Part shown: positions 12,122 through 48,173 of the stretch, in pieces
Position numbering within the stretch: position 1 is the first letter of the stretch
How the letters are laid out: every line of letters starts with the position of its first letter
Source of the DNA: Opitutales bacterium
GTDB taxonomy: Bacteria; Verrucomicrobiota; Verrucomicrobiia; Opitutales; Coraliomargaritaceae
Assembly (NCBI GenBank): GCA_030729385.1
Contig: JANQXM010000029.1
Coordinates: 24,853 to 88,852, forward strand
DNA: 64,000 nucleotides
Direction of reading: 5' to 3'
Translations under genes and position numbers: made by a program
The notes under the pieces: model-generated
What the model saw: the letters and a program-made list of their open reading frames with translations, nothing else
What the model was told of the DNA's origin: nothing
Database searches by the model: none

Positions 12122-12156
12122 AGGTCTGAAGATTAATGAATTGAACTGCGTTTTGA

Positions 12157-17075: not shown

Positions 17076-17106
17076 ACTATAGAAACGTATCCGAGTCTTT
17101 TTTGTT

Positions 17107-18813
17107 ATGATGAATTACACGAGTAGAGTTATGGTTAAGCGATATCGCTTCATTGCACGGCTGAGTTTGTTTTGCACATGTGTGTTAAGTTTGTCGGCTG
17201 TAGAGCGTCCGAACATCGTTATTATCATGTCGGACGACTCTGGCTACACGGATCTCGGTTGCTATGGCGGCGAGATTGAGACACCGAATATTGATCGGCT
17301 TGCCAAAAACGGTATGCGTCTGACGAATTTCTATAGTAATGGTCGTTGCAGTCCGACACGCGCCTCGCTCTTGACTGGTCTTGAACCAGCAAAGGTTGGT
17401 TTTGGTGGTGGCTCGCTCGGAGACTGGAGCCGTGAAATGCCGCAGCCGGCACGTCGTGGGCGCTTATCTTATGAGGTGCCAACTGTGGCTGAGCTATTAC
17501 GCGATAACGGTTATCGCACGCTGATGTCTGGTAAATGGCATTTAGGTGGCAGTCTCATGAAGTTTAATAAGGGGGCTCAGCAAGTTTGGAAGAATAGCCA
17601 TGAGGGCTGGGAGCTGACAAAGGAAGAAATGGAAGCCGATTATTTGGCACTGCCAAGTCAACGAGGCTTTGACGAGTATTTTGGGATCTATAGTGCGCAG
17701 GACAGCTTCTTTTTTAAGCCCGGACAGAACCATCCGTTTATGGAAGGCAACGAGAGGGCAAAGTTGGATTATTCGCACAACTACACTGTGCATTGTTGGC
17801 CCTCTGAGCCGGGTTCTCGTTACAGTGAGAATCACGGTAAGAGTGGTGCCGTCTTTAGCGCCACCGATGGTGTGACTGATCGGGCAATTGAAATGATCGA
17901 GCAAGCATCCACAGATGAAGCTCCGTTCTTTCTCTATGTTTCCTATCGTGCGCCTCACCGTCCTTGGCAAGCACCAGAGGCACTGGTGCAAAAGTATCTG
18001 CCCAAGTATGAGAACCTTCGGGCAACTCAGCAGGCACGGGTAGATGCATTGAAAGCGGAAGGACTTTTCCCCGAAGATGGGGCTTATAAACCAAGTTGGA
18101 TTCCAAGTGATGTTGATACCTTCCGCCGTCAATTGGCTATTCACGCAGCAATGGTGGATAGTATTGATCAGAATGTTGGGCGCCTAATGGAGTCGCTGGT
18201 TAAAACCGATGAGTTGGATAATACGCTGATCCTTTACTTCTCGGATAATGGATCTGTTTCCACTCTAAATGAATACATGAATGCGCCTTTCCGCGGCAGC
18301 AAAGCGTTGGTTTGGGAGGGTGGCTTAAAGACCCACTGCGTCGCTTTTTGGAAAGGTCGAATTAAGCCTGCTACGATTCGAAATGATCAGGTGTGGGTGG
18401 GGGACTGGTTACCAACCGTGCTTGAACTGGCGGGTGCCGAGTATCCCAGTGAATTTCGCGGAAAGAAGATCGAGCCATTGGATGGGCGCAGCGTGTTGCC
18501 TTTGCTTGAGGGCGGTTCGGTCGACCCGCACGACGTGCTCTATTTCAACGACAAGGGCCAGCAAAGCGTGATCTATAAAGGGCGTTGGAAGTTGCTCATC
18601 GAGCCGGGGTGGTATCTGCAGACTAGCGAGAAGCCCGGAGTCGCTTATGAACTCTATGATTTAACGACCGACCCCTCTGAGTCGCGCAATCTCTCTAAGC
18701 AAAAGCCGGAGATGGTGCAGCAGTTGACACAAATTGCCGAAGGTCGCGAGCAGGCTCAAGGGATCGTTGACTACGAAGAAGTCATCAAAGTCCGTCCAAG
18801 AGACCCTTATTGA
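17107..18813 (+). CDS. S1 family sulfatase (Cys-type formylglycine)
   Basis: Signal peptide, [21 protein letters not shown], and C-terminal [14 protein letters not shown]. Confidence 0.9.
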
Positions 18814-18876
18814 TACAGAGGCTTCTCGATAAACATTACAACTTACACACAACACGCGTTCTGCGCTTTTTGATTA

Positions 18877-21263
<2,387 letters not shown>

Positions 21264-21267
<4 letters not shown>

Positions 21268-23351
21268 AACATGGAATTCTAACTATGTTATTGATTTGCA
21301 TCGCGCTTGTTTCAAGTGCGGAGCAGTTGGTTGTCTTATCTCAAGATGGTCTGCATCCGCGCATCGAGACAACCGATCTTGAAATTATTTCACATGAAGG
21401 AGCGGGGATTGTTGTTGCGACCAATGGCAAAGACGAATGGCCGAACATTTCTTTCAAGTCGGTGGGTGCGCCTTGGGATCTGTCCGGATATTATACTGTA
21501 AAAGTGGATGTGACCAATCGTGGGAGCGCACCACTATTTGCAGGCATCCGTCTGGACAGCAAGCAGGCGGATAAAACAGAAACACCACAACATGCACAGG
21601 GGTTCGAGTTGCTACAGCCCGCAGAAACGCGGACGATTAGTATCCGCCTCGTGGCAGAAGATTGGGTGTTTGATCAGCCTCTTAAGCTAGTCGGCATGCG
21701 TCGTGCGCCGGGTGTCCCGTTGATGGAGGTATCCATGGTAGATCGTATTCAAGTGTTTGCCGGACATGTTAAAGGTCCGTGTCAATTTCAGATTAGTAAC
21801 ATTCGTGCTGAAGGTGAAATGAAGGCGGTTTCCTCTGATAACTTCCTGCCATTTGTCGACCAATATGGGCAATACAAGCACGACGATTGGACTGGAAAAA
21901 TTCATTCCGATGCAGATCTTCAAATGGCACTTTCAGCTGAGCTAGCAGATTTTGAGAAGCACCCTGGCGTTAAAAATCTGAGCCCGTATGGTGGCTGGAG
22001 AGATGGACCGAAGCTAGACTCGACCGGCTACTTTCGCGTGCAAAAGGTCGACGGTAAATGGTGGTTCGTCGATCCTGATGGTTACTTGTTCTGGTCGACT
22101 GGTCCCACCTGTATGGATTCCGATTTTGGATACACCGGTGTGCAGGATCGTGAAATATATTTTGAGGGACTGCCGAAAGATAGTGAACCACTTAGTCAAT
22201 TTTATGGTAAAAGTAGTTGGGCGCCCCATGGATTCTATGCGGATAAGGTGCCATTCACTATGTTCAAAACCTACAAAGCGAATCTCTACCGGAAATATGG
22301 GGAGGACTGGCAAGCGCAGTTCGAGGATATGGCGCACAGTCGTCTCAAGAGCTGGGGGATGAACACGGTGGCTAATTGGGCAAGTCCGAGTCTCTACAAG
22401 CAACGACGCACGCCGTATGTAGCGAATTTTTTCATTAGAGGTAACCGTTCACTTGAGGGCTCAAAGGGCTATTGGGGGAAATTTCACGATGTATTTGATC
22501 CTTCCTTCCGAGCATCGATCCAAAGGCAATTAAAACAGCGGAAGTTTGAGGCGAAAGATCCATGGTGTATTGGTTTCTACGTAGATAACGAACTCTCATG
22601 GGGGAACGATGGCATGTCGCTTTCGATCGAAACTTTGGCTAGCCCCGCGGATCAAGTAGCGAAACAAGTTTTCGTTCATGACCTTAAGGCGCATTACGTC
22701 GAGATCGATAAGCTCAATATTGCTTGGGGCACTTCGCACGACTCGTGGGAGGCTTTGCTACAATCAAGAGAAACTCCCGATGCGATCCGTGCCTCGTATG
22801 ACTTGAAGCGATTCTACAAAAAGATCGCCGACACCTATTTTCGAACAGTTCGCGATGAGCTAAAAAAGGCGGCGCCGAATCATCTCTACCTTGGTTGCCG
22901 TTTCGCATGGGTGAATGATGCGGTCGCTATCTCGGCCTCCGAGTTCTGCGACGTTGTGAGTTATAATAAATACGAACACAGCATCCGCAATCTGCACCTG
23001 CCGCATCACATTGATCGCCCATTGATCATTGGTGAGTATCACTTTGGCTCGACTGATCGTGGACATTTTCACCCCGGCTTACGTGAGGCAGACAACCAGT
23101 TTCTACGTGCCGAAAAATTTAAAGACTACTTCGCCAGTGCATTGGCCAACCCGCAAATGGTGGGCGTGCATTGGTTTCAGTATGTCGACGAACACATCGC
23201 AGGCAGAGCCGACGGTGAAAATTATAACGTAGGTCTCGTGGACATCTGCGACACACCTTACCCCGAAATGGTCGATGCCATACGCAAAGTTGGCGCTTCC
23301 TTATATCTAATACGAACCACCCCCACAGAAGGACACCCATGTCAGAACTAA
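21264..23351 (+). CDS. secreted glycoside hydrolase with an N-terminal CBM-like beta-sandwich and a TIM barrel; GH50-like exo-beta-agarase candidate
   Basis: Signal peptide. [17 protein letters not shown] and [10 protein letters not shown] segments. The family call rests on context and recollection-level similarity only. GTG start overlaps the upstream stop (GTGA). Confidence 0.45.
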
Positions 23352-24937
23352 AACAAGAAAATATCGAGATAGATGACGAGGCGACCAAGCCAGAAGATAT
23401 CGTCCCTCTTGGTCAGAAAATCTCCTACTCGATGGGTGTGGTTTCTGATCACTATGCCAACGTCTGCCTCGTGTGGATTTTTATCACGCCCTTCTTTGTC
23501 GATTTCCTTGGCCTCGGCGCTACGGTGGTTGGTCTCGCGTTGGCCGCTGCTCGGTGCTGGGATGCATTTACTGATCCGCTCGCTGGTCGTCTTTCTGATG
23601 CCTGCAAGAGTCGATTCGGTCGCCGTAAACCCTTTATATTTGTCGGAGCGATTTTAACAGGCCTGCTGTTTCCGATTATTTGGTTGGTTCCAGAGACTTG
23701 GTCAACGACGGCGATTACCGTGTATCTGTTTGTCGCTTTGATGCTCTTCTATTCGGTTTATTCGATTTTTTCGGTGCCTTACGAAGCGCTCGGCGCTGAG
23801 CTGACGCCAGACTACCGCGAACGTAGTAAAATCTTCGTGGTGCGTAAGTATGTGCAGGAATTCTTCAATCTCGGCATCGTCTGGATCTTTCCGCTCGCCG
23901 CTTGGCTCGGCACATTTGAATGGATCGGTGGGGAGATCGGTGGGGTGCGCGCTGTGAGTTGGGTCATCGCAATCGTCATCATTGGCGCAGGTATTATGCC
24001 GGCGATCTTTAACGTCGAGCGTTACAAGAATATCGCAGTGAAGGAAGGTGCTGGCAGCTTCAAGGATGCGCTTAAGGCTATGTTTCGTAACAAGCCACTG
24101 CTCATCGTTGTGGGGGTGATCTGCACCTACCTATTCGCGATCATGGCAACGGCCAATTTGTCTTACTTTGTTAATGTTTACTACATTTATGGTGGCGACG
24201 TGATTAAGGGAGCTAGCCTCGGTGGTATCGACGGCACTCTGCGTTTATTCTTCGCGCTAGCCGCGGCCGCAGTGATTGGGAAAATGACGGATAAGGTCGA
24301 CAAGCATAAGATCATGATGGTTTCAGTCGTTATCTTAATTGTCGCCTTCATTGGCATGTATTTCACCACCATTCCTGGTCGCCCATGGCTGGCCTTGTCG
24401 ATGAAGCCTCTAGTCGCGATCGGCGAGTGTGGTTTTTGGGTTTTGATCCTTTCCATGCGTGCCGATGTTTGTGACTGGGACGAATATAACACCGGCTCCC
24501 GTAGCGAGGGACTGATCGCTGCGATCACTAATTGGTGTAACAAAATTGCCATGACTGTGGCCATCGCGATCTCCGGATTTGTGCTACAGTATGTAGTTCA
24601 ATTCGACAGTAACCTGCCAGACGAGGACAAGGCTGCCATCGCGATTCAAGCGGAAGCGGAATACAATCTTCTTTCAGATGCCGACAAGTTCGTAGTTGAA
24701 GGCGAAGAGCCGATTTCGCTCGGCATGTATACCGACAATATGGAGCGCAAGGCGGTCATGGATCGGCAGTCTCCAGGGACGATGGAGCGCATGCGCTTAT
24801 TATACTCCCTTCCGCAAGCCGGCGCTTTGTTGATCTGTCTCTTACTCCTGTGGAAATATCCGCTCACGAAGGATAAAATGATGGAAATCCGTAAGGAACT
24901 CGAAGCGCGTCGTGGCGCTGTAGCTCCTAGTAAATAA
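23339..24937 (+). CDS. GPH (glycoside-pentoside-hexuronide):cation symporter family transporter
   Basis: About 12 predicted TM segments. MelB/GPH signature [14 protein letters not shown]. Overlaps the upstream gene by 13 nt. Confidence 0.8.
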
Positions 24938-24954
24938 AGTATATTATTTGGAAT

Positions 24955-26811
24955 ATGAAATCGATTCTCTTGCCCCTTGGTCTTTTGGGTTCCTCGCTGC
25001 TACTTGCTCAGTCAGAAGTAGTAGAGGTTCACCTATCGCCTAATTTTATTCGCAATATTGGTGGCGTCACCACCTTCGATCGTGATCAGTTTATCACCGT
25101 CCACGAGTCCTATGGCTCAAAGGATATGACGGATGATGAGCTGCACTATTTAGAAGATGTGCTCGATGCGCGGTATGGGCGAGACGGTGGTCTGCTCTCG
25201 TGGCAGGCAACTCATACCAAGGCTGATCCGAATAATCCGGATATGCCAGATGTTGAGGATATTAAAAGAGGTGCGGATGAGTATCGTAAGTCGCTTTTCG
25301 GACGTCAGCGCGAGTTGTCTGAGAAAATGAAAGAGGTCGTGATCTGCACGCACCCGGAAATTATGCACGCGACGCCGGATAACGAGCATGTGCCGTGGGG
25401 TCCTCGCTCCTACGAGGGAGTTGCTGAATATACTGCTCAGTTTCTGAAGCATTACTTCACCGACAGTGAACGTCCACGCTACCTCGAGGTCTTTAACGAG
25501 CCGTTTGTGAAAATTAAGAACATCAAAGGCGCGTCAGTTCAGACTATGTCAGAGCAGCATAATGTGGTGGCTAAGCGCGTGAAGGAATTGAATCCAGATG
25601 TTCTGGTCGGCGGTTATGCGGCGGCATGGATCGAGCTGGAGCATCGTAACTTTGGGCACTGGAATGATTGGCAAAAAGAGTTCATGGATATCGCTGGCGA
25701 GAACATGGATTTCTTTTCCTATCACCTCTATGACGGGGTCAATGTAGAAGGCGCTCCACGCGATCGAACGGGGAGCAACTCCGAGGCTATTATGGATATC
25801 ATTGATACCTATAGCCACCTCAAGTTTGGAGTAGCCAAGCCGCTCATGATTACTGAATACGGTAAGATCCCCGGAGGGAACATGGGCATGGTAGACTATA
25901 GCCCTAAGCGTTCTGCTGGCATGCTCTATTCGTTCAACGGTCAGCATATGACTTTCATGGATCACCCAGATCGTCTTATCAAAACCATTCCGTTTATTTT
26001 GGGTAAGGCAATGTGGACATACGAACTCAAGGGCGCAGGGAAGCCTGGGCAGGCGAATCCTTTTCTTCTGTGGCGTAAGACAGCAGAACGAGATTTTGTC
26101 ACCACCGACCTGACGCTCTTCTATGATTTCTGGAAAGGTGTCGAGGGGGAGTGGCGTGTCAGTCAGAGTTCGAATCCAGATGTGCGAGTCCAATTTCTTG
26201 CAGATCGTGACCGCTTGATTGTAATTCTAGGCAATCTCGCCTTTGAGCCTCACACGGTGCAACTTACTGGATTGGAAGGAGTGAATGTTAAAGCAGTTCA
26301 GGCGCGCTCGCTTATGACTCATGGTGAGCAGCCGATTGTAGACCAACGTTCGATGGATCGTATCCCTTCAACTGTAAATTTGCAGCCAGGCATGGGGCTC
26401 ATGCTCTTTGTTGATTTGGAACATTCAAAGCGTCCGAAGGCGCAGGTTAAAGAATACCGTGTGTATGCGACCGACTACTTGAAAGACATCGAAGCTGATC
26501 AGCCAATCGAGTTCCAATTCGACAACACGCCATCTGGAACTGGCACTGCTGTTCTTCGCGTTTCGCCAGGGCGTGAACTTGGCAAGGCAGTGTTGCCGAC
26601 ATCCATCAAGTTCAATGGCCATTCACTTAAGATCCCAACGAACTGGGCGGGTTCCGATCAAGCAGGTCGATCGAACTTCTTCGGCATGATCGAATTCAAT
26701 GTGCCTATGAAACACGTGGCGCAGACTAATGAAGTTGAAATCATTTATCCGGACAGTGGTGGCAAGATCGCCTGCGCTGTTCTTCAAATTAATCGAAACG
26801 AAAAATTGTAA
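24955..26811 (+). CDS. secreted clan GH-A glycoside hydrolase, GH86-like (beta-agarase/beta-porphyranase candidate)
   Basis: Signal peptide. Putative acid/base in YLEVFNEPF (E182) and nucleophile in LMITEYG (E301). Paralog of 30952..32901. Confidence 0.45.
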
Positions 26812-26816
26812 ATCTC

Positions 26817-27893
<1,077 letters not shown>

Positions 27894-27896
27894 ATC

Positions 27897-29522
27897 ATGA
27901 AACATTTACTGACATATACACTCCTATTATTGACCGCTCTTTCTGCTTTTGCGGAAAATCGTAAACAGCCAAATATTCTCTTTATCATTACCGATGACGA
28001 GTTTCGTGATCATTTCGGTTTTCTTGGTGGCAATTCGCTGACACCGAACATTGACCGCCTGGCTAATGAAGGCATCTACTTCGAAAATGGCTTTGTTTCA
28101 TCCAGTGTCTGCTCACCTAGTCGGTATACTTGCTTGAGTGGTCATTTCGCTAGTCGTTGCCCACAGCCGTATTTCCAGACAGGCACGACTGAAGACGGAG
28201 TGACCCGCATCCTCTGGAACCTAGGATTTACAGAAGGCCAGCCGAATATCCCGCGCGTGTTGCGCCAAGCCGGGTATGCTACCGGTTTTACCGGAAAGTG
28301 GCATTTGAATGGCACTATGCACCTAGTCGAACACATCGAGAAGGGAGCAGATCCCTACGATCCGGAAATTCAGAAGGTTATGCATGCAAATCATGACATC
28401 ATTGCCAACGAGATCAAACGCTTTGGGTTTGATTTCGCCGATGCGGTCTACGGTGGTAATCCCGACGACGATCAGACTTTGAAGAATACCAATTCCAATG
28501 TGCATAATCAGGAATGGAACACTAAGGCAGCCATTGACTTTATTGAGGCGAATCAGGATCAGCCGTGGTATATGTATTTTGCTCCGACGCTGATGCACGT
28601 GCCGGATACCTATGCATCGCTTGTCGGTGATCCGCGCAAGAGTGGTAAGGGAGTGCTTGATGCGCCGATCACCGGAGTGCAACCTTCACGTGCAAGCGTG
28701 CTTGAGCGCGCGAAGGCCGCAGGTATCCCAAACAAAAATGCTGCCGCTACCTGGCTGGATGACGGGATTGGTGCGATCATGGCGAAGCTTGAGGAACTCG
28801 AACTCGCTGAGGACACCTTGATCATTTTCTTCAATGACAACGGAATGGAGTATCACTCCAAGGGCACCAACTATCAGGGAGGGATTCGCACCCAGATTAT
28901 GGCTTACTGGCCAGGAGTCATCGAGCCAGGGACACGTCCGCAAGAGCTGGTTCAAAATACAGATTTCGCACCTACCTTCTTTGAACTGGCAGGCATCGAT
29001 CCACCGAAAAATATGATGCTCGACGGATTCAGCCTGACGCCGATTCTTCGCGGTGAGTCACCCGAAGATTGGCGCAAGGCCGTGTATAGTGAAATCGGTT
29101 TGGCGCGTGGTGTTGCAACCGCCGATTGGAGCTATGTGGCATTTTACGTGCCTCCAAGTTTAGAGCGCACAAAAGAAGCGCGTGTTGCTGAGGCCAAAGA
29201 GTATTACTACGGCGAGATGTTGGAGCAGCATCCGTGGATGGAACAAATGTATCCATTTTTGGAAGACGCTCCATACTATCAACTCGGCATGAAGCCGGGT
29301 GGGTATGCGTTTGAGAGATGGCAGCTAAAAGACCCGAAAAACACACCTTGGGCATCTAGCTACTTTGATCGCGATCAATTGTTTCACCTAAACAATGATC
29401 CGACTGAGACGACCAACCTCGCGAAGAACCCTGAATACGCAAACCAACTGAAGGAGATGCAAACACTCCTTGTTGAGTATTTGGAGAACCTGCCTGGTGC
29501 CTACCCAGGGTTGAAAGAATAA
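27897..29522 (+). CDS. S1 family sulfatase (Cys-type)
   Basis: Signal peptide, [38 protein letters not shown]. Confidence 0.9.
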
Positions 29523-29537
29523 AGTTCGATTCGCTAT

Positions 29538-30932
29538 ATGTTTCCAATTCTTAACAGATCTTTTTCGGTCGTATTGGTCATTCTTGTTGCTGGTCTCACT
29601 GGCTTGGCGGCTAAGCCTAATATTATAGTGATTATGGCGGATGATTTAGGCTATGGAGATTTGGGCTATACTGGTTCCAAAAATATCCCGACGCCAAATA
29701 TCGACCGATTGGCTGATGAAGGGGTGGAGTGCACCTTTGGTTATGTCACGCATGCGTATTGTGGTCCGTCACGGGCTGGGTTCTTGACTGGTCGCTATCA
29801 ACAGCGGTTTGGCTTCGAAACCAATCCGCCATATTCCAGAGACAATCCCATTACCGGAATGCCGGAAGACGAGTCTTTGTTTGCTGAGCGTCTGCAAAAA
29901 GCTGGTTATAAGACTGGGGTGGTGGGTAAGTGGCACATTGGATCGCATGGCATTCACCATCCCAATAATCGTGGCTTCGATTTCTTCTTCGGCTTTCTTG
30001 GGGGCGGGCATGATTTCTTCCGTGTGGATATGACTGAGCCTCTCGGTGAAGGGTATTTGGATACGTTGATGCGTAACGAAAAACCTGTGGATGTGAAAGG
30101 CTACCTAACCACACAACTCACCGATGAGGCGATCGGCTTTGTTGAACGTAATCAGGACGATCCGTTCTTTCTGTTCGTCTCCTATAACGCACCGCATTCT
30201 CCGCTACAGGCACCGGAAGAAACTGTGGCGCAATTCAGCCATTTAGAAGGTTGGGAGCGACAGACCTATTCCGCCATGGTCTTCGAAATGGATCGAGAGA
30301 TCGGACGTCTCTTGAGAAAGTTGGAAGATGCTGACCTTTCGGAGGAGACCTTGATCTTCTTTCTTAGCGATAACGGTGGTCCGCCTCACTGGGATAAATC
30401 TCAGGAGGCTTATACCTCCAACGGTTCCTTCCGCGGCTACAAGGGAGATACCTATGATGGCGGCGTTCATGTGCCGTTTCTTGCCTACTGGCCCGGCACA
30501 TTGCCTGCGGGAGGAAAATTCACTAAACCAGTCGTCTCGCTCGATATCGCGCGGACTGCGGTGTCACTCGCCGGAGGCGAAGCGGACGGGCTGGAGGGCG
30601 TTGATTTGATCCCTTATTTGACAGGAGATGACCAGAGTGCGCCGCACAAAGCGATTTACTTTCGGCGTCGTAACAGCACCGCATGGGCTGTCGTGACAGC
30701 TGATGGATATAAATGGATCAAGAACGATTGGGATCAGCAGAGTGAGCTCTACAATTTATTTTCCGATGTCAGCGAACAGAACAATATGATTAATCAAGAG
30801 CCGGAACGAGCCGCCACTTTGAAGAAGATTTGGCAGGAGTGGAACGAGCAAAATATCCCCCACCACTTTTCGGATATTGCCCCCTTTCATCGAGACGTGA
30901 AGCAATTCTACAAGAATATGAAACCCGAATAA
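29538..30932 (+). CDS. S1 family sulfatase (Cys-type), same subfamily as 49657 and 51154
   Basis: [43 protein letters not shown]. Confidence 0.9.
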
Positions 30933-30951
30933 TTTAAGTGTTTAAGAACCA

Positions 30952-32901
30952 ATGAATATGAAATCTGAATGTATACTACTCGCGGCGGTCGCCTTGTCTC
31001 TTACTGGATGTCAGCCTGAACCCACAGCATTAATCGCCAGCGATGGTCCTTTAGACCTTTCAAAGCCGCATATCATAGTTGAACCAAACGTGACTCGTGC
31101 TATCGGCGGTGTCTCGGAAGTTGATCGTAAACGCTACTTTTCGGTGAGTGATCACGGCACCAATTTCGACAAGCGTGTGCCCGACGACATTTACGACTAT
31201 CTCGTGCATTACTTAGGCATCACGTTCGGGCGTCAACTCGGTCCGGTTAAATGGACTGCCTCGACGCTTCCTGAGGATCCGAATCATCCGGGTTATGCGG
31301 ATGTTTCCAAATTGAAGAAGCAGAAGTTAAGTCAGCCGGGTGAACAATTCGTGAAAGACTTCGGTCCGAATCTGGACGTTGCAGCGCACGGCAACCATAA
31401 CGCATACCCTGAGTATATGGGTAAGTATACAAAAGAGGGCGCCATGAATCATGGCAAACTTGAGTATGTGCCCGAGAATATCGATGCGGCGGTCGAGCTG
31501 GCTGCTGCGGTATTCAAATATAACTATAACGACTTTGACCGTCCCAAGTTCTATGAGCCGCTCAATGAGCCGCATTGGATGTTCTTTGTTGATCAGCACT
31601 TTGCGGACTGGCACTTGGCCGTTCAAGAGAAGTTCCATGAAGTCCATCCTGATGTGAAAGTCGGCGGAATGTGTATGTCGGTATCCTACTTTTATCGCGA
31701 CAATTACCAGAACTTCAACGGTATGAAGGGCTTTTATGATGCGACGGCGGGAAAAATGGATTTCTATTCATTCCACTCTTACGATTACTTTGATTGGACG
31801 GACGGAGACTTTCGTGGTCGTGTGCAGTCCGGTCTGCCACTTGAAGGCACGCTCGATCTATTGCAAAACTATGCGGTGCTCGAAGACGGTAAAGAAGTGG
31901 ACGTTGTTATCAGTGAGCAGGGTGGCTACATCAATGTGCAACCAAAGGGCATGTATGATGGTGAGGCGCTCGCGGCTAAGATCGCCGAGAAGCACTTCCC
32001 TGAAGACACGTGGGAGAATGAGCTAAAGAAACGCTCTATTGTATGCTTCGTGCACGTAAGTAGCATTATCGCTAATACGATGACTTTCATTGATCATCCA
32101 CATACGGTGCAAAAGTCTGTGCCTTTTCTGTTGCCGAATACGTGGAATTGGGACCCCAAATATTACGCGGGTTTGTATGTTCCTGAAAACTACACTGATG
32201 AGTCTAAGTGGGTGCAGACGCACATGCTAGACTTCTACAAGTTGTTCCGCGGTGTCGATGGTCGTCGCGTTCAGGCGTTTTCTAGTGATCCTGATTTGCA
32301 GACCCGCGCCTTCGTCGATGGTTCGAAATTATATATCGCAATTAACAACCAGAGTTGGCGCTCCGAGTCGGTAAATTTGTCTGGAGTGAGTGCTTCGAAG
32401 GTTGAAATACGCCGCTTTGGGCGGAATGAGGATTTCACTGCTTACTTTAATGAGGCAGTTGTGGATACACCGGAATTGTTAGAACTGGCAGGTCGTGAAT
32501 CGGTGGTGATCGTGGCGGATATGGGGACAGACATTAAAGAGCAGTCACGTATTAACGAAGTGGTTCACTATTCGAATCAAACGCGTTTACCCCTAAGCAA
32601 TGCAGAGTTCACAATTGAGACGCCGCTGGACTCAAAGATGCAATATGCGATTTTACGAGTAGGACTCACGCGTCCCAGTGGGTCGAGTCACGAAGCGATC
32701 ATTGAACTGAATGGAAATGCTTTAGAAGTGCCTGTTGAGAATAGCGCAGACCGCTTTGACAAAGGTGAGTATGCGACGACTAAGTTGATCTACCTGAAGC
32801 CATCTCAATTACAGGAGGTGAACACGGTTAAGGTCAGCTTTCCCGACGGTGATGCTGGTTCTGTTGGCACGGTAGTGATTCGATCTGGTGTGTTGGAGTA
32901 A
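30952..32901 (+). CDS. lipoprotein, clan GH-A glycoside hydrolase, GH86-like paralog
   Basis: Lipobox [16 protein letters not shown] (acid/base) and VVISEQGG (nucleophile). Overall collinear with 24955..26811. Confidence 0.45.
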
Positions 32902-32948
32902 CCGCAAAATGGAGAAAGTTTACTTCTGATCTGAAACGAAAAAGCACT

Positions 32949-34298
32949 ATGAAAAAAGCCGCGGCTGTGTCGATTCTTGTTGTTACCACTTTGGTTGTTG
33001 GAGTTGGTTATTTATTATATTTAGATGCGGCTAAGCGCAGTCGTCCCGCAGTGGTTGAATCGCCACCAGAAAAAGCTCCGGTCCCAGTGGTCGAATCACC
33101 AGTTATTGTGGAAGTGCCAGACACTGAGCCGCCCAAGCCCGTCCCCGAGGTTGTGACTGAATCTGTGCCCGATCCTGAGCCGATCCCCGTCCCTGATCGC
33201 TATGCCATGTTGGTGATTGCCTCGGCGGATGGGCGCGAGTTGGAGGCTCAGATTCTCGATGTAACTGCAAAGACTGCATTCATTCGACGGGAGGATAAAA
33301 TTATCTTCGAAATTCCACTGGATAGACTAAACGCTTCGTCTTTAGGGGTAGTTGATGCATGGCGCGGAGCCTATGCGCACTTGGTCACACCAGAACAAAA
33401 AGCATTTCTAGCTGGTCCGAAAATCAAGCCAGAAGTCGCGGCTCATTCCGTCGATGATACAGTGCCTGAAACGCTCGCGGATGACGATAACCCCACCGGC
33501 CCTTTTGTGAAAGATCGCATACCGGGTGTGGCGTGGGAGCCCGTTAAAGAGATGACGGATGAGTTTGATGGTCGTCGCGTAGATGAAGATAAATGGCAAA
33601 TCGAGCCGAAAGGAAATGGTTGGAACTGGATAGGGCGTGCCCCGGGATTGTTTTTGGCCGACAACGTGTCGGTTGAGGATGGGAAATTGAAAGTTACGGT
33701 GAGCAAGCTTGATAAACCCGAGACTATAAACGGTAACGAGTTCCTATATCAGGGGGCGATCGTGCGTTCGCATCACGCGGGTGAGTTAGGATGGTTTTTT
33801 GAATGTAAGATGAAGGCCAATGCGACTGAAATGTCTTCGACTTTTTGGCTGATGACCAAAGGCCACACCATCAAGAAACTCGAAATGGACATTCAGGAAT
33901 GCGTCGGGACGATTTCGGATAATGCGGATCCTTGGGTGAATGGCTGGGATCATATTTTCCACTCCAATTTGATTCATCGTAAAAACCAGCATAACCCCGA
34001 GCCAGTTCAAATTCAGAAAGGGCTCAAACTGAAGAAGGAAAATCACAAGCGCTTTTACACCTATGGGGCGTGGTGGAAGTCGGAGCGGGAAGTGCTCTTC
34101 TATCTGGACGGGGAGCATGTCTATACACTGGTGCCGGAAGTCGATTGGGATGTGCCCGCCTATATTCAAATGGCGATTGAGACCTACGATTGGAATCCCG
34201 TCCCCGAGCGTGGGAGTATGGTAGAGCGGGGAAGCCTCGAACAACGCCAAACGCAATACGAGTGGGTGCGCACTTGGCGGGCGGTTACTTCTCAGTAG
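32949..34298 (+). CDS. membrane-anchored GH16 with a Pro-rich linker and SHD1-like domain
   Basis: N-terminal TM and PEP/PVP-rich linker. SHD1-like segment GRELEAQILDVTAKTAFIRREDKIIFEIPLDRLNASS. GH16 catalytic motif LEMDIQE. C-terminal YEWVRTWR. Confidence 0.8.
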   Translation: MKKAAAVSILVVTTLVVGVGYLLYLDAAKRSRPAVVESPPEKAPVPVVESPVIVEVPDTEPPKPVPEVVTESVPDPEPIPVPDRYAMLVIASADGRELEAQILDVTAKTAFIRREDKIIFEIPLDRLNASSLGVVDAWRGAYAHLVTPEQKAFLAGPKIKPEVAAHSVDDTVPETLADDDNPTGPFVKDRIPGVAWEPVKEMTDEFDGRRVDEDKWQIEPKGNGWNWIGRAPGLFLADNVSVEDGKLKVTVSKLDKPETINGNEFLYQGAIVRSHHAGELGWFFECKMKANATEMSSTFWLMTKGHTIKKLEMDIQECVGTISDNADPWVNGWDHIFHSNLIHRKNQHNPEPVQIQKGLKLKKENHKRFYTYGAWWKSEREVLFYLDGEHVYTLVPEVDWDVPAYIQMAIETYDWNPVPERGSMVERGSLEQRQTQYEWVRTWRAVTSQ

Positions 34299-34347
34299 CC
34301 GATTGCAATTTGAGCTCCAGGCTCTAACTTAAAACGAAATTATAACT

Positions 34348-35205
34348 ATGCTACGTATACTATTGCCTCTCTTTGCCACGATTACACTACCAGCTCTTGC
34401 TTCCGATTGGCGTCCGCTCATTGATCAGGAGCTCTCTAACTTTGAAACATGGATGGGGGTCCCGCATTCGACCGTTGAGGGTTTGCCAGAGGGCACTTAC
34501 CAGTCGAGTAATGTTCATAAAGGCACGCCGATCGGACTGAATGCGGATGTGAAGAACGTCTTTACCGTGGTGGAAGAAAATGGAGAGCCTGTGCTCAAAA
34601 TTACGGGCGAAATTTATGGAGGTTTGACTACACTCGAAAGCTACTCGAACTACCATTTGAGTGTGCAGGTAAAGTGGGGCGATAAGAAGTGGGAGCCGAG
34701 GCTCAACGATCTGCGCGATAGTGGCATCCTCTATCATTGCCATGGTGAGCATGGAGCCTTTTGGCAGGTCTGGATGTCTTCGCTGGAGTATCAAGTGCAG
34801 GAGACGGATATGGGCGACTTTATCCAAATTGCCGGTCCGAAAGCGGAGATTCGAACCACCAAGCTAGATGGGGTGAAACGTCTGCGCTTTGATTCGGCAA
34901 GTGAGACTTATAGCAGTGGCTATATTAGTGCTTATCCGGAGCCTGATGCACCGCATGGAGAATGGAACCTGCTTGAAATCTATGTTATCGGCAACGACGC
35001 GATCCATGTAGTCAATGGCGAGGTGGTCATGGTCGTAGAAAACGCAGTCAAGAAGGATGGCACTCCTCTGACCTCTGGTCAAATTCAGATCCAGTCCGAG
35101 GCGGCCGAAGTCTATTATAAGGATTTTAAGATCCGCTCGATCGAAGATTTCCCTGAAGCGATACGCTCAAAGGTTCGTTTCAAGGTTGAAGCTGCGCAGG
35201 ATTAA
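34348..35205 (+). CDS. DUF1080 (3-keto-disaccharide hydrolase-like) secreted protein
   Basis: Signal peptide. Typical DUF1080 features: WMGVP..., [49 protein letters not shown]. Confidence 0.7.
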
Positions 35206-40268: not shown

Positions 40269-40339
40269 GACGTTCGTGCGGTCCGGGATCCGACTTCGCC
40301 CTACGGGCTACGCCGGGACGCAGCGGGCCTGCGCTACCT
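40269..40339. repeat. degenerate end of the 35.2-kb palindromic repeat family
   Basis: GACGTTCGTGCGGTCCGGGA ... CCTGCGCTACCT matches the right end of 35237-35397 (GACGTTCGTGCGGTCTGGGACGGACCTGCGCTACCT), with a ~39-nt insertion. Confidence 0.5.
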
Positions 40340-40385
40340 TTTCCTTCTTATGGAAGTCCGCCACGAATCTTTCATGGGCTTTGTG

Positions 40386-40400
40386 TGTATCTAAAGATAT
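40386..40400. promoter_or_regulatory. operator-like site TGTATCTAAAGATAT upstream of the sulfatase-GH16 fusion gene
   Basis: Identical 15-mer to 16161-16175, located 66 nt upstream of ATG 40466. Confidence 0.45.
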
Positions 40401-40465
40401 GCGCTGAGTCATCGACGTGTCTGAAAAAAACAGGATGCTTTCCTTTGTTCTATACTCCTCTTACG

Positions 40466-43162
40466 ATGACCCCATCCCATGTTTCTATCTTTCTAGGTCT
40501 GACGCTGACTCTACTGAGCGCAGTGGCCAAACCGCTTTCGCAGCCGAATATCCTTTGGATCATTACCGATGATCAGCGCAGTGATTCGGTCGCCGCATTT
40601 AACCGTGCCACGACGGGGCAGGCTGAAAGTAAGCTTGGCTATGTTGAGTCACCTAACCTTGATGCGCTGGCTGCCGAGGGGACACTCTTTACGAATGCTT
40701 ATTGCAACTCGATGGCTTGTGCGCCGTCTCGGAGTTCCATGCATACTGGTAGATATCCTCATCGCAGTGGTATGTATGGATTTCGTAAGGCACATCAGGC
40801 GGTGGATGTCCGAAGTCGGATGATCCCTGAAGTCATGTTGGAGCATGGCTACCAGCCTTCGATGTTTGGTAAGAGCGGTTACTATATTTTCGATTGGGAA
40901 AACTACAACAACTGGAAAGACCCAGGTTATTACGATCCTTTTATCACTAACAATACGCTGCAAAAGACAGACGGAAGTGACTTCTGGTTTAACAAGCCCT
41001 GGTCGTCTGAGCTGCATAAGGTGATCGGCACAGAAGAGGTCTTTCGATATGCGGACGGCAGCGTGAAGCGCTATTGGACGAATCGAGTTGAACGTGATCT
41101 GACAGTGGAAGAATTAGAGACCCGAAAGGAAGTCGAGGCGGAGCTTGATATACTACGCAGCTATACTCGCTCTAACCCGGAGCTCATCATTGGGGGGGTG
41201 TCGCCAGCGAAAACAGGTGAGACCTTGGATGGGGCTATTGTTCAATCGATGCAGCGCTATTTTACTAACGAAGGGAAGGACTATACTACAGTCACCGGAG
41301 ATCGCACAAAAGGTCCCGACCCAAGTCAGCCACTTTTTGTAAATTTAGGCTTCGTCTTCCCGCATACGCCTGTCCTGCCGACGAAAGAGTTTCGGGATCG
41401 GTTTAAAGATAAGCAGTATCGGATTCCTGAATACGAGGCATTTGAAGCTGAGTCGATGCCAGGGTCGCTGCGGGATCTGCGCGAGGATATGGACTTTTCA
41501 CGAATGACCGATGAGGAGAAGCAGCAAGCGATTCGTGACTACTATGCATTCTGTGCGATGGGGGACCATTTGATTGGGCAGGCGATTCAGTCCTTCAAAG
41601 ACTACTGCGCAAAGCATGATCAGGAGTATCTCATCCTCTATGTCTGTGGCGACCATGGCTGGCATTTGGGTGAGCAGGGGATTGAGGCTAAGTTCGGTCC
41701 TTGGTATCAAACTGTGCACGACAGTGTGATTGCGGTGTCTTCCGATAAATCTCGTTTCCCCTCTGGTAAGATTGTTCACGACTGGGTCGAGTTTGTAGAC
41801 TTCGCTCCAACGTTTTATGAAATGGCAGAGATTAATTCTGAGGTGCATCCCGGACTCGATGGAGTGAGCCTCTTGAAAACACTCTATAGCGGACCGCAGC
41901 GGGATTACGTAATCGGGGAGATGAATCAGGTGCGCGGAGATCGTGCCTATTTGCGCAGTGAAGACTTTGCTTTTGCCATGCGGGTGCGGCCTTTCTGGAC
42001 TAAGCCTGGCGAAGGCTATGCTCCAGGTGAGCGTATTCGTTGGGGACTCGATGCGCCGACTGAAGAAGTTGATATGTCTCTTTATGATTTACGTCTCGAT
42101 CCTGATGAACGCCGTAATGTGGCGCAGGAACCCGAGTATCAGGCATTGGCTGCGTGGTTCCGTCAGAAGTTGGGTTCCATCGTGCTGGGTGACGGCAGGC
42201 TGGAAGTGGACTGGACTCAGGAGAACGTTTATAGCGTTCACAATTTTGCGAAAGGTGCGCACGATGGTAAGCTCGATATTCCGGAATCTGTGATGCCGCA
42301 TGTGGAACTGCCCGAGGATCCACGTGCCTTGGCTATTGAAGCTTTGAATGCAATTCCCGAACCGGAAGGTCCTTATTCGATTGATTTGCCAGAAGAAGTG
42401 AACTGGGAGTCGGTCGCTGAATTGTCGGATGAGTTTGAAGGTGATGCGCTGGATTTAACGAAATGGCATGCCGATCCGATGGCTCATGGCTGGGGCTGGG
42501 TGGGTCGTCCTCCTGCTATTTTTTTAGAGCGAAATGTCAGTGTCGATGACGGTAAGATGAAAGTAACCGTGGGTAAGCTGGATGAACCAGTCTATGTGGG
42601 CGGAGATCGTTTTGTCTATGAGGGAGCGATCGTGCGCTCGATATTGCCTGCTGCTACAGGTATGTATGTCGAATGTAGAATGAAAGCCAATGCGACCGAG
42701 ATGTCTTCCACTTTTTGGCTCATGACAAAGGGCGATACCAGCTTGTCCCAGGAACTCGATATTCAAGAGTGTATCGGCAAGCCGGTTCAGGAAGCTGTGG
42801 ATTGGGCCCAAGACTGGGATCGAATATTTCATTCCAACATGATTCGAAGAAATCCAGATATGGAGCCCGACCGTGTTCAACTGCAAGACCAGCGCTCGAT
42901 GACAGAGAGGAACTCCCAGGACTTTCATGTATATGGCGCCTGGTGGAAATCTGAGCGAGAGGTTCTCTTCTATCTTGATGGCGAGTATCAGTATACGATA
43001 CGTCCAGAGGTCGATTGGAATATGCCGGCCTATATTCATATGGCGATTGAGACGTATGACTGGAATCCAGTCGGCGATACCGGCACCTTAATCGAGCACG
43101 GCACCCTTGACGAGCGCACCACGCAATACGATTGGATTCGCACCTGGCGAGTGAGCGAATGA
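40466..43162 (+). CDS. bifunctional-architecture protein: N-terminal S1 sulfatase fused to a C-terminal GH16 domain
   Basis: Start set to ATG 40466 ([21 protein letters not shown] signal peptide). [27 protein letters not shown] and [14 protein letters not shown] mark the sulfatase. The last ~270 aa are ~60% identical to the GH16 of 32949..34298, including ELDIQE. Confidence 0.8.
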
Positions 43163-43193
43163 AGAAATACTAATCACCTGAGATCATACGATT

Positions 43194-45170
<1,977 letters not shown>

Positions 45171-46616: not shown

Positions 46617-48173
46617 TTAAGGATCCATGGAGCGGACGTAATCGGTTATACGGCTTCCATTTGAGCGTTCGATGGGAGTGTAGCGCTCTCTCCAGTTGTT
46701 GGCAGTTTCGGGGTTCGTCCACGCACGCACGTAGTCGACTTCGAATGTGGAGGGTAGGTCGCTCTCTTCGGGCACGCCAAGCCAGTCGAACATCGTTTCG
46801 GAGTCGAAGACCATATACTGCGGACCATGCCAGCGTGTGTTATTGACACGGCGAACGAGCACACCATCGACGAAGTATTTGATCGTCTCCGGAGTCCACT
46901 CGAGACCATAGACGCGGAAGTCACCCGCAAGTGGACGTTCCGCCACCCATGAGCCACCGAGGCTGTAATGTTTCGGATTCGCAGCAGTCTTAAAATCATG
47001 GAGGTTCATGTTGTATTTAAGCTCCTTGCCTTTGGCTTTACCACCGATCTCGAAGACATCGATTTCGAGTCGTATGTGCGTGTCAGTCGCTTGGTCGATG
47101 GAGCTTCCTGTGAACCACCAGGCACTCGATCCCGCAGAGGCCATTGGCTTGGCCCGGATTTCAAAGTATCCGTAGTTGATGCGCTCCTTACTGACGATGC
47201 TACCACTTGCGTAATCTTTATAAACATTGTGGCTCCTGTAAAATTGCTCGTGTGGAAGGCTTGAGTCTTTCACCATTGTGATGGCCATCTTACCATTCTC
47301 GACACGAACATGACGCGCCAGAAAGCGACCTGGTATACGCCCATACCAGTAGGGGTTGTGGTCATGCCACTTATCAGTATCTAGGCTATTTTCGTTGAAC
47401 TCATCCCACATGGGTGTGAAGGGTTGCCATTGCCCTTGATTGGCTTGGTCGGATAGAGGTAAGGCGTCGGTCTGCCGAACCGGGAGTGGTTCGGGGAGTG
47501 CGCCATTACGTGTCCAGTCACCTTCTGTCGGAACCTTTAAATTCCATTTTTCTTGAAGGTAATGCCCAATGGCTTCGATCGGCTCGAATACGATGAAACT
47601 GCGGTCGTAGACCAAAACTTCGGCAATATCGCCATAGAGATGCTGCTGGTGATAGAGGTGCTTTGAGCCGATGGTCATCGTGGCACGTAAATCACTGCGA
47701 AAGAGATCGTAGATGATGCGTGCTTCCATCGCGCCGGCATCTTCTGCCGTATTCAGTTGTATGCCAGGCTCTTTATTGTCTTCCGGGAACTCTTCGGTTG
47801 TTGAAGAGATGAGCCGTTGCCAACTATGGTCAGTCGCTTGCTCGGCTGTGCGTTGAAAAACGATGAATATGGAGTAGCCATTGATCTTCTGGCTAAGCAC
47901 GGGGAGGTTCAATCGCTGTTTCCCGGAGAAGCGAATCGCGGGTTCACCGTGTAGTGCCTGCATGGCATAAATCGGCGCGTAGTCGGCTTCGGCGGTGGCG
48001 TGATTGTCTTTACCGCTGAGGTCATTCCAGCAAAGCACATGCCCTGTGCTATCGAGCTCGATTGATTCTTTCACCGAGCTGTCGAGATGGAGGACGAGTC
48101 CCTTGGTGGGAAGTTCTGCATGAGCGATTGACATGCAGAGCGAGAGGCTAAGGAGTAGGTTGCGATAACGCAT
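46617..48173 (-). CDS. secreted LamG-like (concanavalin-type) domain + GH16 glycoside hydrolase
   Basis: Signal peptide. N-terminal Laminin_G_3-like region (LVLHLDS...NHATAEADYAPIY...IRFSGKQRLNLP). Canonical GH16 motif EIDVFE. C-terminal VDYVRAW. Confidence 0.8.
   Translation of the reverse strand: MRYRNLLLSLSLCMSIAHAELPTKGLVLHLDSSVKESIELDSTGHVLCWNDLSGKDNHATAEADYAPIYAMQALHGEPAIRFSGKQRLNLPVLSQKINGYSIFIVFQRTAEQATDHSWQRLISSTTEEFPEDNKEPGIQLNTAEDAGAMEARIIYDLFRSDLRATMTIGSKHLYHQQHLYGDIAEVLVYDRSFIVFEPIEAIGHYLQEKWNLKVPTEGDWTRNGALPEPLPVRQTDALPLSDQANQGQWQPFTPMWDEFNENSLDTDKWHDHNPYWYGRIPGRFLARHVRVENGKMAITMVKDSSLPHEQFYRSHNVYKDYASGSIVSKERINYGYFEIRAKPMASAGSSAWWFTGSSIDQATDTHIRLEIDVFEIGGKAKGKELKYNMNLHDFKTAANPKHYSLGGSWVAERPLAGDFRVYGLEWTPETIKYFVDGVLVRRVNNTRWHGPQYMVFDSETMFDWLGVPEESDLPSTFEVDYVRAWTNPETANNWRERYTPIERSNGSRITDYVRSMDP

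What the first reader, a model, noticed from the sequence alone, without database searches (positions are those of the whole stretch)
40466..43162. Sulfatase-GH16 fusion protein
A single 898-aa secreted polypeptide carries a complete Cys-type S1 sulfatase ([13 protein letters not shown]; [14 protein letters not shown]) followed by a linker. The C-terminus is a complete GH16 domain with an intact ELDIQE motif, about 60% identical to the stand-alone GH16 at 32949..34298. Desulfation and backbone cleavage of sulfated galactans are normally done by separate proteins. A covalent fusion implies obligate coupling, for example removal of L-galactose-6-sulfate or another blocking sulfate immediately before endo-cleavage. 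It would also be a useful handle for assigning specificity to both domains. The same GH16 module appears in this window behind three different N-terminal partners (SHD1-like, sulfatase, LamG-like), which indicates active domain shuffling.
Basis: partly seen in the sequence, partly recalled or inferred. Interest (0 to 1): 0.65.

Follow-up and report, generated by a model that had tools for sequence, protein, structure and literature searches.

The report
Sulfatase fused to porphyranase-type GH16
A marine Verrucomicrobia bacterium encodes one secreted protein that joins a sulfate-removing enzyme to a red-seaweed-sugar-cutting enzyme; the fusion is real, conserved and rare, has arisen more than once, and offers a handle on an uncharacterised marine sulfatase group, but it is a new combination of known parts.

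Summary
Window 40466..43162 (+) is one uninterrupted 898-aa ORF. It has a Sec signal peptide, a Cys-type S1 sulfatase (aa 26-611, C85-A-P-S-R), a ~35-aa linker, and a complete GH16 domain (aa 646-898, ELDIQE) closest to Zobellia porphyranase B.

It is not an assembly artefact. Metagenome contigs from two studies cover it with no differences. Full-length orthologues exist in Coraliomargarita akajimensis (Caka_0378, 73% identity) and three other assemblies. Both halves are under strong purifying selection (dN/dS 0.06 and 0.08).

The fusion is rare. I found only nine 90%-identity clusters with any sulfatase/GH16 fusion. They represent at least four independent events, including reversed GH16-sulfatase proteins built with two other sulfatase subfamilies.

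Those enzymes cut next to L-galactose-6-sulfate and leave sulfated products. I favour the reverse order: the GH16 cuts and the tethered sulfatase then desulfates the product. This order is inferred.

"The same GH16 module behind three partners" is wrong. Only one other GH16 in the window is a close paralogue (56%); the other two are ~27% identical and belong to other GH16 lineages.

The sulfatase belongs to a widespread marine subfamily with no close solved or characterised relative. Verdict: an uncharacterised new variant of the known multimodular GH/sulfatase theme, of moderate interest.

The parts
40466..43162 (+). Whole gene: 898-aa sulfatase-linker-GH16 protein, including the stop codon
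   Evidence: ORF list and translation. Zero-difference coverage by independent contigs. Full-length orthologues.
40466..40531 (+). Predicted Sec signal peptide (aa 1-22, ...LLSAVA|KP). There is no lipobox Cys.
   Evidence: Read from the sequence. AF2 predicts helix 7-17 followed by low pLDDT. No signal-peptide predictor was run.
40541..42298 (+). S1 formylglycine-type sulfatase domain (aa 26-611), including a ~150-aa insertion (aa ~140-285) and the C-terminal subdomain. Stand-alone orthologues end at about aa 611.
   Evidence: Pfam PF00884. Alignments A1/A2. pLDDT is mostly above 90. The Foldseek hits to this half are S1 sulfatases at 16-21% identity.
40718..40732 (+). C85-A-P-S-R89 formylglycine motif (Cys type)
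   Evidence: Nearly invariant in 44 family members.
42299..42400 (+). Interdomain linker (aa 612-645). Its sequence varies but its length is conserved, and it has a short predicted helix at aa 619-628.
   Evidence: Alignment A1. Low pLDDT. dN/dS 0.09 against P0003.
42401..43159 (+). GH16 catalytic domain (aa 646-898), PorB-type beta-porphyranase-like
   Evidence: PDB sequence search: 3JUU 3e-57, 4AWD 9e-36, 4ATE/3ILF ~1e-24. Foldseek: 3JUU, 37% identity, TM 0.75. Pfam PF00722.
42752..42769 (+). E763-L-D-I-Q-E768, the ExDxxE catalytic motif. It is identical to PorB's ELDIQE.
   Evidence: Conserved as ELDIQE/EIDIQE/EIDVQE in all five full-length orthologues.
32949..34298 (+). Stand-alone paralogue: membrane-anchored 449-aa GH16. 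Its catalytic domain is 56% identical to the fused one and is its nearest clade in the tree.
   Evidence: Tree: sister with 90/63 support.

Best explanation
This is a secreted enzyme with two catalytic domains, encoded in the agar/porphyran degradation locus of a Coraliomargaritaceae-like member of the Verrucomicrobiota.

The C-terminal GH16 is a PorB-type endo-beta-porphyranase. I expect it to bind the sulfated agar chain and cut the beta-1,4 bond between D-galactose and L-galactose-6-sulfate.

The N-terminal domain is a Cys-type, formylglycine-dependent S1 sulfatase from an uncharacterised marine subfamily. It is tethered by a ~35-residue flexible linker. I expect it to act on the oligosaccharides the GH16 has just made. 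The most likely reaction is removal of the 6-sulfate from the L-galactose newly exposed at the non-reducing end. That would open the chain to the exo-enzymes encoded nearby (GH117/GH43-like, GH2).

The fusion would then work by proximity. The GH16 targets the sulfatase to its substrate, and the product is handed on before it diffuses away.

Shown here: the architecture, intact catalytic motifs, conservation, purifying selection on both halves, locus context, and independent recurrence of GH16/sulfatase fusions.

Inferred: the substrates, the order of the two reactions, and where in the cell the protein works.
For: - Both domains are complete, with catalytic motifs intact.
- dN/dS against the 92%-identical orthologue is 0.056 for the sulfatase, 0.077 for the GH16 and 0.09 for the linker.
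- Five full-length orthologues exist, including C. akajimensis Caka_0378. Their GH16 and sulfatase trees are congruent, which indicates a single old fusion.
- The window is an agar/porphyran locus: two GH86 genes with porphyranase domains, a GH117 (3R4Y, 7e-168), three GH2 genes, a P450, MR_MLE and Aldedh genes (the AHG-catabolism type) and about 8 sulfatase genes (7 stand-alone plus the fusion) and a 3' sulfatase remnant.
- In the published pathway, endo-porphyranase acts first, then an exo L6S 6-O-sulfatase at the non-reducing end, then an alpha-L-galactosidase (GH29/GH117), then GH2.
- Independent fusions in the opposite order join the same GH16 clade to two other sulfatase subfamilies (P0126/P0128 and P0130). 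These also lie in loci with GH2, GH16 or GH117-like genes.
- The sulfatase subfamily sits directly after a divergent GH117-like gene in Formosa agariphila. The same GH117-like gene directly precedes the reversed fusions.
- None of the five other window sulfatases I tested has the known L6S sulfatase (S1_11: 7LHA, 7SNJ) as its best PDB hit. That role is therefore open in this locus.
Against: - There is no biochemical evidence for either activity, for the substrate or for the order of action.
- The sulfatase is only 16-21% identical to any solved S1 sulfatase, and none stands out. Its specificity is a guess from context.
- The canonical His two residues after the catalytic Lys is absent (K136-S-G). 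It is not conserved across the subfamily either.
- Other sulfatases in the locus could be the L6S enzyme, for example 27897..29522, which is conserved next to GH117.
- No formylglycine-generating enzyme gene was seen in the window.
- No transcript evidence was found. Three metatranscriptomes from the same study gave nothing.
- The AF2 confidence for the GH16 half was modest.
- One lineage (P0007) lost the GH16 half, so the coupling is dispensable.
Confidence: 0.55

Rival explanations
1. One reading: the sulfatase acts first, in endo mode. It removes a blocking sulfate on the polymer (L6S or another ester such as a D-galactose sulfate of complex agars), and the fused GH16 can then cleave.
For: The sulfatase subfamily is uncharacterised, so an endo mode is not excluded. 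Natural agars carry sulfate esters other than L6S; this is general knowledge and was not tested here. The ~150-aa insertion in the sulfatase could form an extended binding surface.
Against: PorA/PorB-type GH16 enzymes cut at G-L6S and give the sulfated disaccharide as end product. [quoted passage not shown] The fused GH16 has PorB's MSSTFW and ELDIQE active-site strands unchanged.
Confidence: 0.2
2. Only one domain is catalytic. The other serves as a substrate-targeting (CBM-like) module: either the GH16 is a binding domain for the sulfatase, or the sulfatase fold is a sulfate-recognising anchor for the GH16.
For: A distant relative (P0046, 940 aa) joins the same sulfatase family to a GH16-like domain whose motif has degenerated to ELIVQL. 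GH16-fold domains can therefore be kept without catalysis. The canonical His after the catalytic Lys is missing in the sulfatase.
Against: ExDxxE and CxPxR, and the sulfatase metal and acid/base residues I could place (D35, D36, R89, K136, H300, D396, H397, K409), are kept in all five orthologues. dN/dS is below 0.1 in both halves. The missing His is a trait of the whole, highly conserved subfamily, not a lesion in this protein.
Confidence: 0.1
3. Artefact: a frameshift, a misassembly or a chimeric contig has joined two separate genes.
For: None found.
Against: Contigs of runs from two studies match with no differences across the junction. There are five orthologues with the same architecture, including one from a finished isolate genome. 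The two domain trees are congruent.
Confidence: 0.02

Closest known systems
Zobellia galactanivorans beta-porphyranase B (PorB, PDB 3JUU). Published beta-porphyranases fall in subfamilies GH16_11 and GH16_12.
   Same: Full-length GH16 domain match (E=3e-57, 38.5% identity over 257 aa; Foldseek TM 0.75). The ELDIQE catalytic motif and the MSSTFW strand are identical.
   Different: PorB is a single-domain enzyme. Here the domain is the C-terminal module of a sulfatase. The subfamily number was not assigned because no dbCAN-sub models were available.
P36 GH78-S1_25 bifunctional enzyme of the Formosa agariphila ulvan PUL (sulfatase module: PDB 6HR5)
   Same: One polypeptide carries a glycoside hydrolase and an S1 sulfatase that act on the same sulfated algal polysaccharide. 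This is the characterised precedent for GH/sulfatase fusion.
   Different: It has a different GH family (an exo-rhamnosidase), a different sulfatase subfamily and a different polysaccharide (ulvan). There the sulfatase acts before an exo-GH on the same terminal sugar. Here the GH is endo-acting and probably acts first.
BpS1_11 / BuS1_11 exo-L-galactose-6-sulfate 6-O-sulfatases of gut Bacteroides (PDB 7SNJ, 7LHA)
   Same: This is the only characterised porphyran sulfatase activity, and it is the step I propose for the fused sulfatase. The overall S1 fold is shared.
   Different: Only 16-18% identity, and the sequence match covers only the N-terminal region (E=2e-16). The fused sulfatase is not a member of S1_11. 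It has a ~150-aa insertion, and about 610 aa against about 500.
Multi-domain sulfatases of marine Planctomycetes (Kim et al. 2016, PMC4807772)
   Same: That genome survey reports sulfatases longer than 600 aa fused 'most often' to glycoside hydrolase domains, and proposes gene fusion as the driver.
   Different: It gives no specific sulfatase-GH16 example and no biochemistry. It concerns a different phylum.
Caka_0378 (ADE53403.1 / D5EMJ7) of Coraliomargarita akajimensis DSM 45221
   Same: A true orthologue: 904 aa, 73% identity, 100% coverage, in the same kind of locus.
   Different: It is annotated only as 'sulfatase-like hydrolase/transferase'. No paper in the searched library mentions it.

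Membership tests
Glycoside hydrolase family 16 (galactanase clade) | GH16 beta-jelly-roll domain detectable by profile and by structure | tested here: met
   PF00722, 2e-7. 16 PDB GH16 chains hit, all of them porphyranases, agarases, carrageenases or generically titled GH16 enzymes. Foldseek finds 3JUU with TM 0.75.
Glycoside hydrolase family 16 (galactanase clade) | Catalytic ExDxxE motif (nucleophile, helper Asp, acid/base) | tested here: met
   E763-L-D765-I-Q-E768. Aligned to PorB's ELDIQE. Conserved in five orthologues.
GH16 beta-porphyranase (PorB type) | Closest characterised relatives are porphyranases rather than agarases or carrageenases | tested here: met
   PorB 197 bits, BpGH16B 127, PorA 90, AgaC 50, kappa-carrageenase 34.
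GH16 beta-porphyranase (PorB type) | Endo-hydrolysis of the G-L6S beta-1,4 bond of porphyran | not testable with these tools
   Needs an enzyme assay.
S1 formylglycine-dependent sulfatases | Sulfatase (alkaline-phosphatase-like) fold with the C/S-x-P-x-R motif | tested here: met
   PF00884, 5e-28. C85-A-P-S-R89. The Foldseek hits to this half are S1 sulfatases.
S1 formylglycine-dependent sulfatases | Metal-binding and catalytic residues (Asp-Asp, Arg, Lys, His, Asp-His/Asn, Lys) | tested here: inconclusive
   D35, D36, R89, K136, H300, D396, H397 and K409 are present and nearly invariant in the subfamily. The His normally two residues after K136 is Gly. No coordinates were available to look for a substitute.
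S1 formylglycine-dependent sulfatases | Post-translational Cys-to-formylglycine maturation by FGE or anSME | not tested
   No maturase gene was recognised among the window ORFs I scanned.
SulfAtlas subfamily S1_11 (exo-L-galactose-6-sulfatase) | Close sequence relationship to BuS1_11 / BpS1_11 | tested here: not met
   7LHA gives E=2e-16 on the N-terminal region only. Identity by Foldseek is 16-18%, no better than a dozen other subfamilies.
Multimodular GH + sulfatase enzymes | Two catalytic modules in one continuous polypeptide | tested here: met
Multimodular GH + sulfatase enzymes | The two modules catalyse linked steps on the same substrate | not testable with these tools
   Only supported by context and by convergent fusions.

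The most novel reading that the evidence does not exclude
The repeated, independent welding of PorB-type GH16 to three different S1 sulfatase subfamilies, in both domain orders, marks those subfamilies as the missing marine porphyran/agar sulfatases. That includes the widespread ~610-aa subfamily found here. No marine porphyran sulfatase has yet been characterised. The tethered enzyme would work as a cut-and-desulfate machine, with a measurable kinetic advantage over the separated domains.
Probability: 0.3. Interest if true: 0.6.

Novelty: new variant of a known kind. Interest (0 to 1): 0.45.

Why it matters
Only two porphyran sulfatases have been characterised, both S1_11 enzymes from gut Bacteroides. 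Marine sulfatases have been hard to produce in active form: none of those tested in a 2026 screen was active.

The sulfatase half belongs to a large uncharacterised subfamily. A search with the full-length protein returned 901 hits, and nearly all of those listed matched only the sulfatase half. They come from Verrucomicrobiota, Kiritimatiellota, Planctomycetota and Bacteroidota, including Formosa and Zobellia.

A natural fusion to a porphyranase-type GH16, together with convergent fusions to other sulfatase subfamilies, gives a concrete, testable substrate hypothesis for that subfamily. It also gives a ready-made construct for asking whether tethering improves the breakdown of sulfated galactans.

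It does not overturn any concept. GH/sulfatase fusions are already known in ulvan degradation and in planctomycete genomes.

Tried and rejected
I could not look for the maturase, for further copies in the window's own genome, or for taxonomic markers.
- SulfAtlas and dbCAN-sub typing were not available. NCBIfam gave only sub-threshold generic hits. PDB sequence and fold searches gave no close sulfatase relative.
- For transcript evidence, the RNA run search returned only three metatranscriptomes from the same study. None had contigs on the gene. This is uninformative rather than negative.
- Literature searches for Caka_0378, D5EMJ7, T2KN05, ADE53403, CDF79823 and the guessed F. agariphila locus tags found nothing.
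- Promoter and terminator scans around the gene were at chance level.
- I considered that stand-alone P0007 (624 aa), which nests inside the fusion clade, meant two separate fusions. I rejected this. The GH16 tree of the five fusions mirrors the sulfatase tree. The P0007 locus is syntenic, and it has a MITE-like inverted-repeat element and no GH16 remnant where the domain would be. That indicates secondary loss.
- I considered the longer GTG start at 40259. I rejected it because orthologue N-termini align to the ATG start.
- A census of 20 long PorB-like GH16 representatives found CBM6/35/4_9/96, ricin, Ig-like/CarboxypepD_reg, fimbrillin-like/LRR and T9SS-tail partners, but no sulfatase.
Full report
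**1. Observation**

The + strand carries a single ORF across the reported interval. From ATG 40466 to the stop at 43160-43162 it encodes 898 aa without interruption. A GTG at 40259 would extend it, but the N-termini of the orthologues align to the ATG start.

Pfam finds Sulfatase (PF00884, aa 27-455, 5e-28) and Glyco_hydro_16 (PF00722, aa 734-867, 2e-7). The N-terminus ([21 protein letters not shown]|KP) looks like a Sec signal peptide with no lipobox. This is read from the sequence; no predictor was run.

**2. Is the fusion real?**

Logan contigs from runs of two different studies cover 40200-43300 with 0 differing letters and 0 gaps: X1 (17 kb, seawater metagenome) and X4 (28 kb, depth 41, aquatic metagenome). 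One of these may be the source sample.

Full-length homologues with the same architecture exist:
- an unnamed Logan contig (P0003, 92% identity);
- Coraliomargarita akajimensis DSM 45221 (P0004 = Caka_0378 / ADE53403.1, 904 aa, 73% identity, 100% coverage);
- a JGI metagenome contig (P0005);
- an Opitutaceae MAG (P0006).

Nei-Gojobori dN/dS against the P0003 gene is 0.056 for the sulfatase, 0.091 for the linker and 0.077 for the GH16. Both halves are therefore under strong purifying selection. An artefact is effectively excluded.

**3. Anatomy**

*GH16 half.* The best solved relatives are all porphyranases: PorB 3JUU (3e-57, aligned over PorB residues 25-275), BpGH16B 4AWD (9e-36), and PorA 4ATE/3ILF (~1e-24). 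Agarases and kappa-carrageenases score far lower. Identity to PorB is 38.5%. Foldseek gives 3JUU a TM score of 0.75. The catalytic ELDIQE and the MSSTFW strand are identical to PorB.

*Sulfatase half.* The following residues are present and nearly invariant across 44 family members: D35/D36, C85-A-P-S-R89, K136, H300 (the PH-x-P motif), D396-H397 and K409. The His usually found two residues after the catalytic Lys is Gly here, and it is not conserved in the subfamily. Its significance is unknown.

The AF2 model is confident for aa 26-611 (pLDDT mostly above 90). It is low for the linker (aa 612-645, with a short helix at 619-628) and only moderate for the GH16, because the alignment was shallow there.

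No solved sulfatase is close. A dozen S1 subfamilies, including S1_46, S1_11, S1_7 and the unclassified PsS1_NC, match equally at 16-21% identity. Stand-alone orthologues of ~604-640 aa end exactly where the linker starts.

**4. Context**

The window is a large agar/porphyran locus of PVC type. It contains:
- two GH86 genes with porphyranase beta-sandwich domains;
- a GH117 (3R4Y, 7e-168);
- three GH2 genes;
- four GH16 genes in all;
- seven stand-alone sulfatase genes, the fusion, and a 3' sulfatase remnant;
- a P450;
- MR_MLE and aldehyde dehydrogenase genes of the anhydrogalactose-catabolism type;
- AraC and LacI regulators;
- DUF1800/DUF1501 genes.

In C. akajimensis the orthologue lies in the order GH117 - S - S - GH86 - GH86 - S(620 aa) - FUSION - GH16(449 aa) - MFS. 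The 620-aa sulfatase is a 50%-identical stand-alone paralogue of the fused sulfatase. The 449-aa GH16 is the orthologue of window 32949..34298. Both domain types therefore also exist as separate genes, right beside the fusion.

**5. Origin and distribution**

In a GH16 tree the five fusion domains are monophyletic (100/100). They are sister, with moderate support (90/63), to the Coraliomargarita stand-alone GH16 pair.

In the sulfatase tree the same five group together with the same internal topology. One stand-alone protein, P0007 (624 aa), sits inside this group. Its locus is syntenic with the window. It shows no GH16 remnant after the stop codon. Instead it has a 329-bp (11879-12207) element with 33-nt inverted terminal repeats. 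I read this as one fusion event followed by one secondary loss.

The fusion is rare. Searching 5.8 billion clusters for the GH16 half inside proteins of 494-1571 aa returned 78 hits. Only P0002-P0006, P0126, P0128 and P0130 among them carry a sulfatase. Among 20 long representatives of PorB-like GH16s from the exhaustive 1.84-billion-protein search, none has a sulfatase. Their partners are CBM6/35/4_9/96, ricin, Ig-like, CarboxypepD_reg and fimbrillin-like/LRR domains and T9SS tails.

**6. Convergence, the most informative result**

P0128 (895 aa), P0126 (truncated) and P0130 (818 aa) have the opposite order, with the GH16 at the N-terminus and the sulfatase at the C-terminus. Their sulfatases belong to two other subfamilies: one about 31% identical to the window's S1_19-like pair, the other giving a strong SGSH_C hit. 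One cluster member of P0130 is labelled Kiritimatiellia.

The GH16 domains of these reversed fusions form a separate, well-supported clade. That clade also includes P0125, a GH16 fused to a GH32N/43-like domain. The neighbouring clade includes P0122, a GH16 fused to a GH28-like domain. The 2026 preprint notes GH28 genes in a Cellulophaga porphyran PUL.

P0046 joins a different branch of the present sulfatase subfamily to a distant GH16-like domain whose motif has decayed to ELIVQL. Its sister sequences fuse that sulfatase to a GH43-like domain or to a second sulfatase.

Sulfatase/GH16 fusion has therefore arisen at least four times.

The reversed fusions directly follow a divergent GH117-like gene. 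The same GH117-like gene directly precedes the stand-alone subfamily member in Formosa agariphila.

**7. Mechanism**

Published work sets the order of events. GH16 porphyranases cut between D-galactose and L-galactose-6-sulfate and end at the sulfated disaccharide (PMC8360166). [quoted passage not shown] After that, GH29/GH117 alpha-L-galactosidases and GH2 act (bioRxiv 10.64898/2026.05.19.726164; bioRxiv 10.1101/2023.03.30.534863; PMC9096561). Endo-enzymes are usually not impaired by sulfate, whereas exo-enzymes are.

I therefore propose that the GH16 cuts first and the tethered sulfatase desulfates the freshly exposed non-reducing end. The benefit of the fusion would be proximity and targeting.

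None of the five other window sulfatases I tested has the known L6S sulfatase as its best PDB hit. They look like S1_19, S1_15, 7ALL-like and 9FVT-like enzymes. The L6S role is therefore unassigned in this locus, and the fused sulfatase is one candidate among several.

I give that 0.2. A non-catalytic role for one domain gets 0.1, given the intact motifs and low dN/dS.

**8. Comparison and novelty**

The closest characterised precedent for the architecture is the GH78-S1_25 ulvan enzyme of F. agariphila. A planctomycete genome survey had already noted many sulfatases fused to GH domains (PMC4807772).

No paper in the searched library mentions a sulfatase-GH16 fusion or Caka_0378. The database annotation of the orthologue ignores the GH16 half.

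This is a new domain combination within a known theme: an endo-GH16 porphyranase type joined to an uncharacterised S1 subfamily. I rate it a new variant of a known kind, with interest 0.45. Most of its value lies in giving a substrate hypothesis for a large uncharacterised marine sulfatase subfamily.

**9.

- The GH16 at 10886..12121 is kappa-carrageenase-like (NF041449, 309.8 bits) and only 27% identical over a partial (~109-aa) alignment.
- The GH16 at 46617..48173 is also 27% identical.
- Only 32949..34298 is a close paralogue, at 56%.
- Shuffling of this GH16 type is real, but it is documented by the out-of-window proteins described above.

Noticed in passing
L006:11879-12207: In the Verrucomicrobiota MAG that carries stand-alone P0007, the place where the GH16 domain would be holds a ~330-bp element with 33-nt terminal inverted repeats (91% complementary) and no GH16 remnant. 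It looks like a MITE associated with loss of the 3' half of the fusion gene.
   Followed up: partly
window 10886..12121 (-): This GH16 is kappa-carrageenase-like (NCBIfam NF041449, 309.8 bits, just under the 350 cutoff) although it sits in an agar/porphyran locus. The locus may target mixed or hybrid red-algal galactans.
   Followed up: partly
P0046 (940-aa metagenome protein): The same sulfatase subfamily is fused to a distant GH16-like domain whose ExDxxE motif reads ELIVQL. It is probably a non-catalytic, binding-type GH16 fold.
   Followed up: partly
P0122, P0125 (metagenome proteins); L003 and L004 loci: A clade of N-terminal PorB-like GH16 modules (60-78% identical to each other) is fused to different C-terminal catalytic domains: GH28-like, GH32N/43-like, and two sulfatase subfamilies. 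The endo-porphyranase module may be repeatedly welded to downstream pathway enzymes.
   Followed up: partly
L005:8723-11845; L003:8723-12688; L004:8757-12457: There is a conserved gene pair. A divergent GH117-like gene (34% identical to the window's GH117, 59-65% identical among the three copies) is immediately followed by the ~610-aa sulfatase subfamily (Formosa agariphila) or by a GH16-sulfatase fusion.
   Followed up: partly
L007:2605-5121: The Opitutaceae MAG that carries fusion orthologue P0006 also encodes an 838-aa protein that combines a sulfatase with a GH43-like domain.
   Followed up: no
window 40865..40879 (FGKSG, aa 134-138): The whole sulfatase subfamily lacks the canonical His two residues after the catalytic Lys (K-x-H). 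The C. akajimensis paralogue has a His one position later (K-D-D-H).
   Followed up: partly
window 16224..35205 versus L001: Synteny differs from C. akajimensis. There the fusion lies between a GH86/sulfatase pair and the 449-aa GH16. In the window the fusion sits ~6 kb downstream, beyond the P450 operon and an AraC gene, next to a repeat-rich stretch (39888-40343).
   Followed up: partly
L001:2615-4023 versus L002:2614-4023: In one C. akajimensis-like run the 469-aa sulfatase is called as two overlapping ORFs (181 + 296 aa). In the other run it is intact. This is either a frameshift variant or an assembly error.
   Followed up: no
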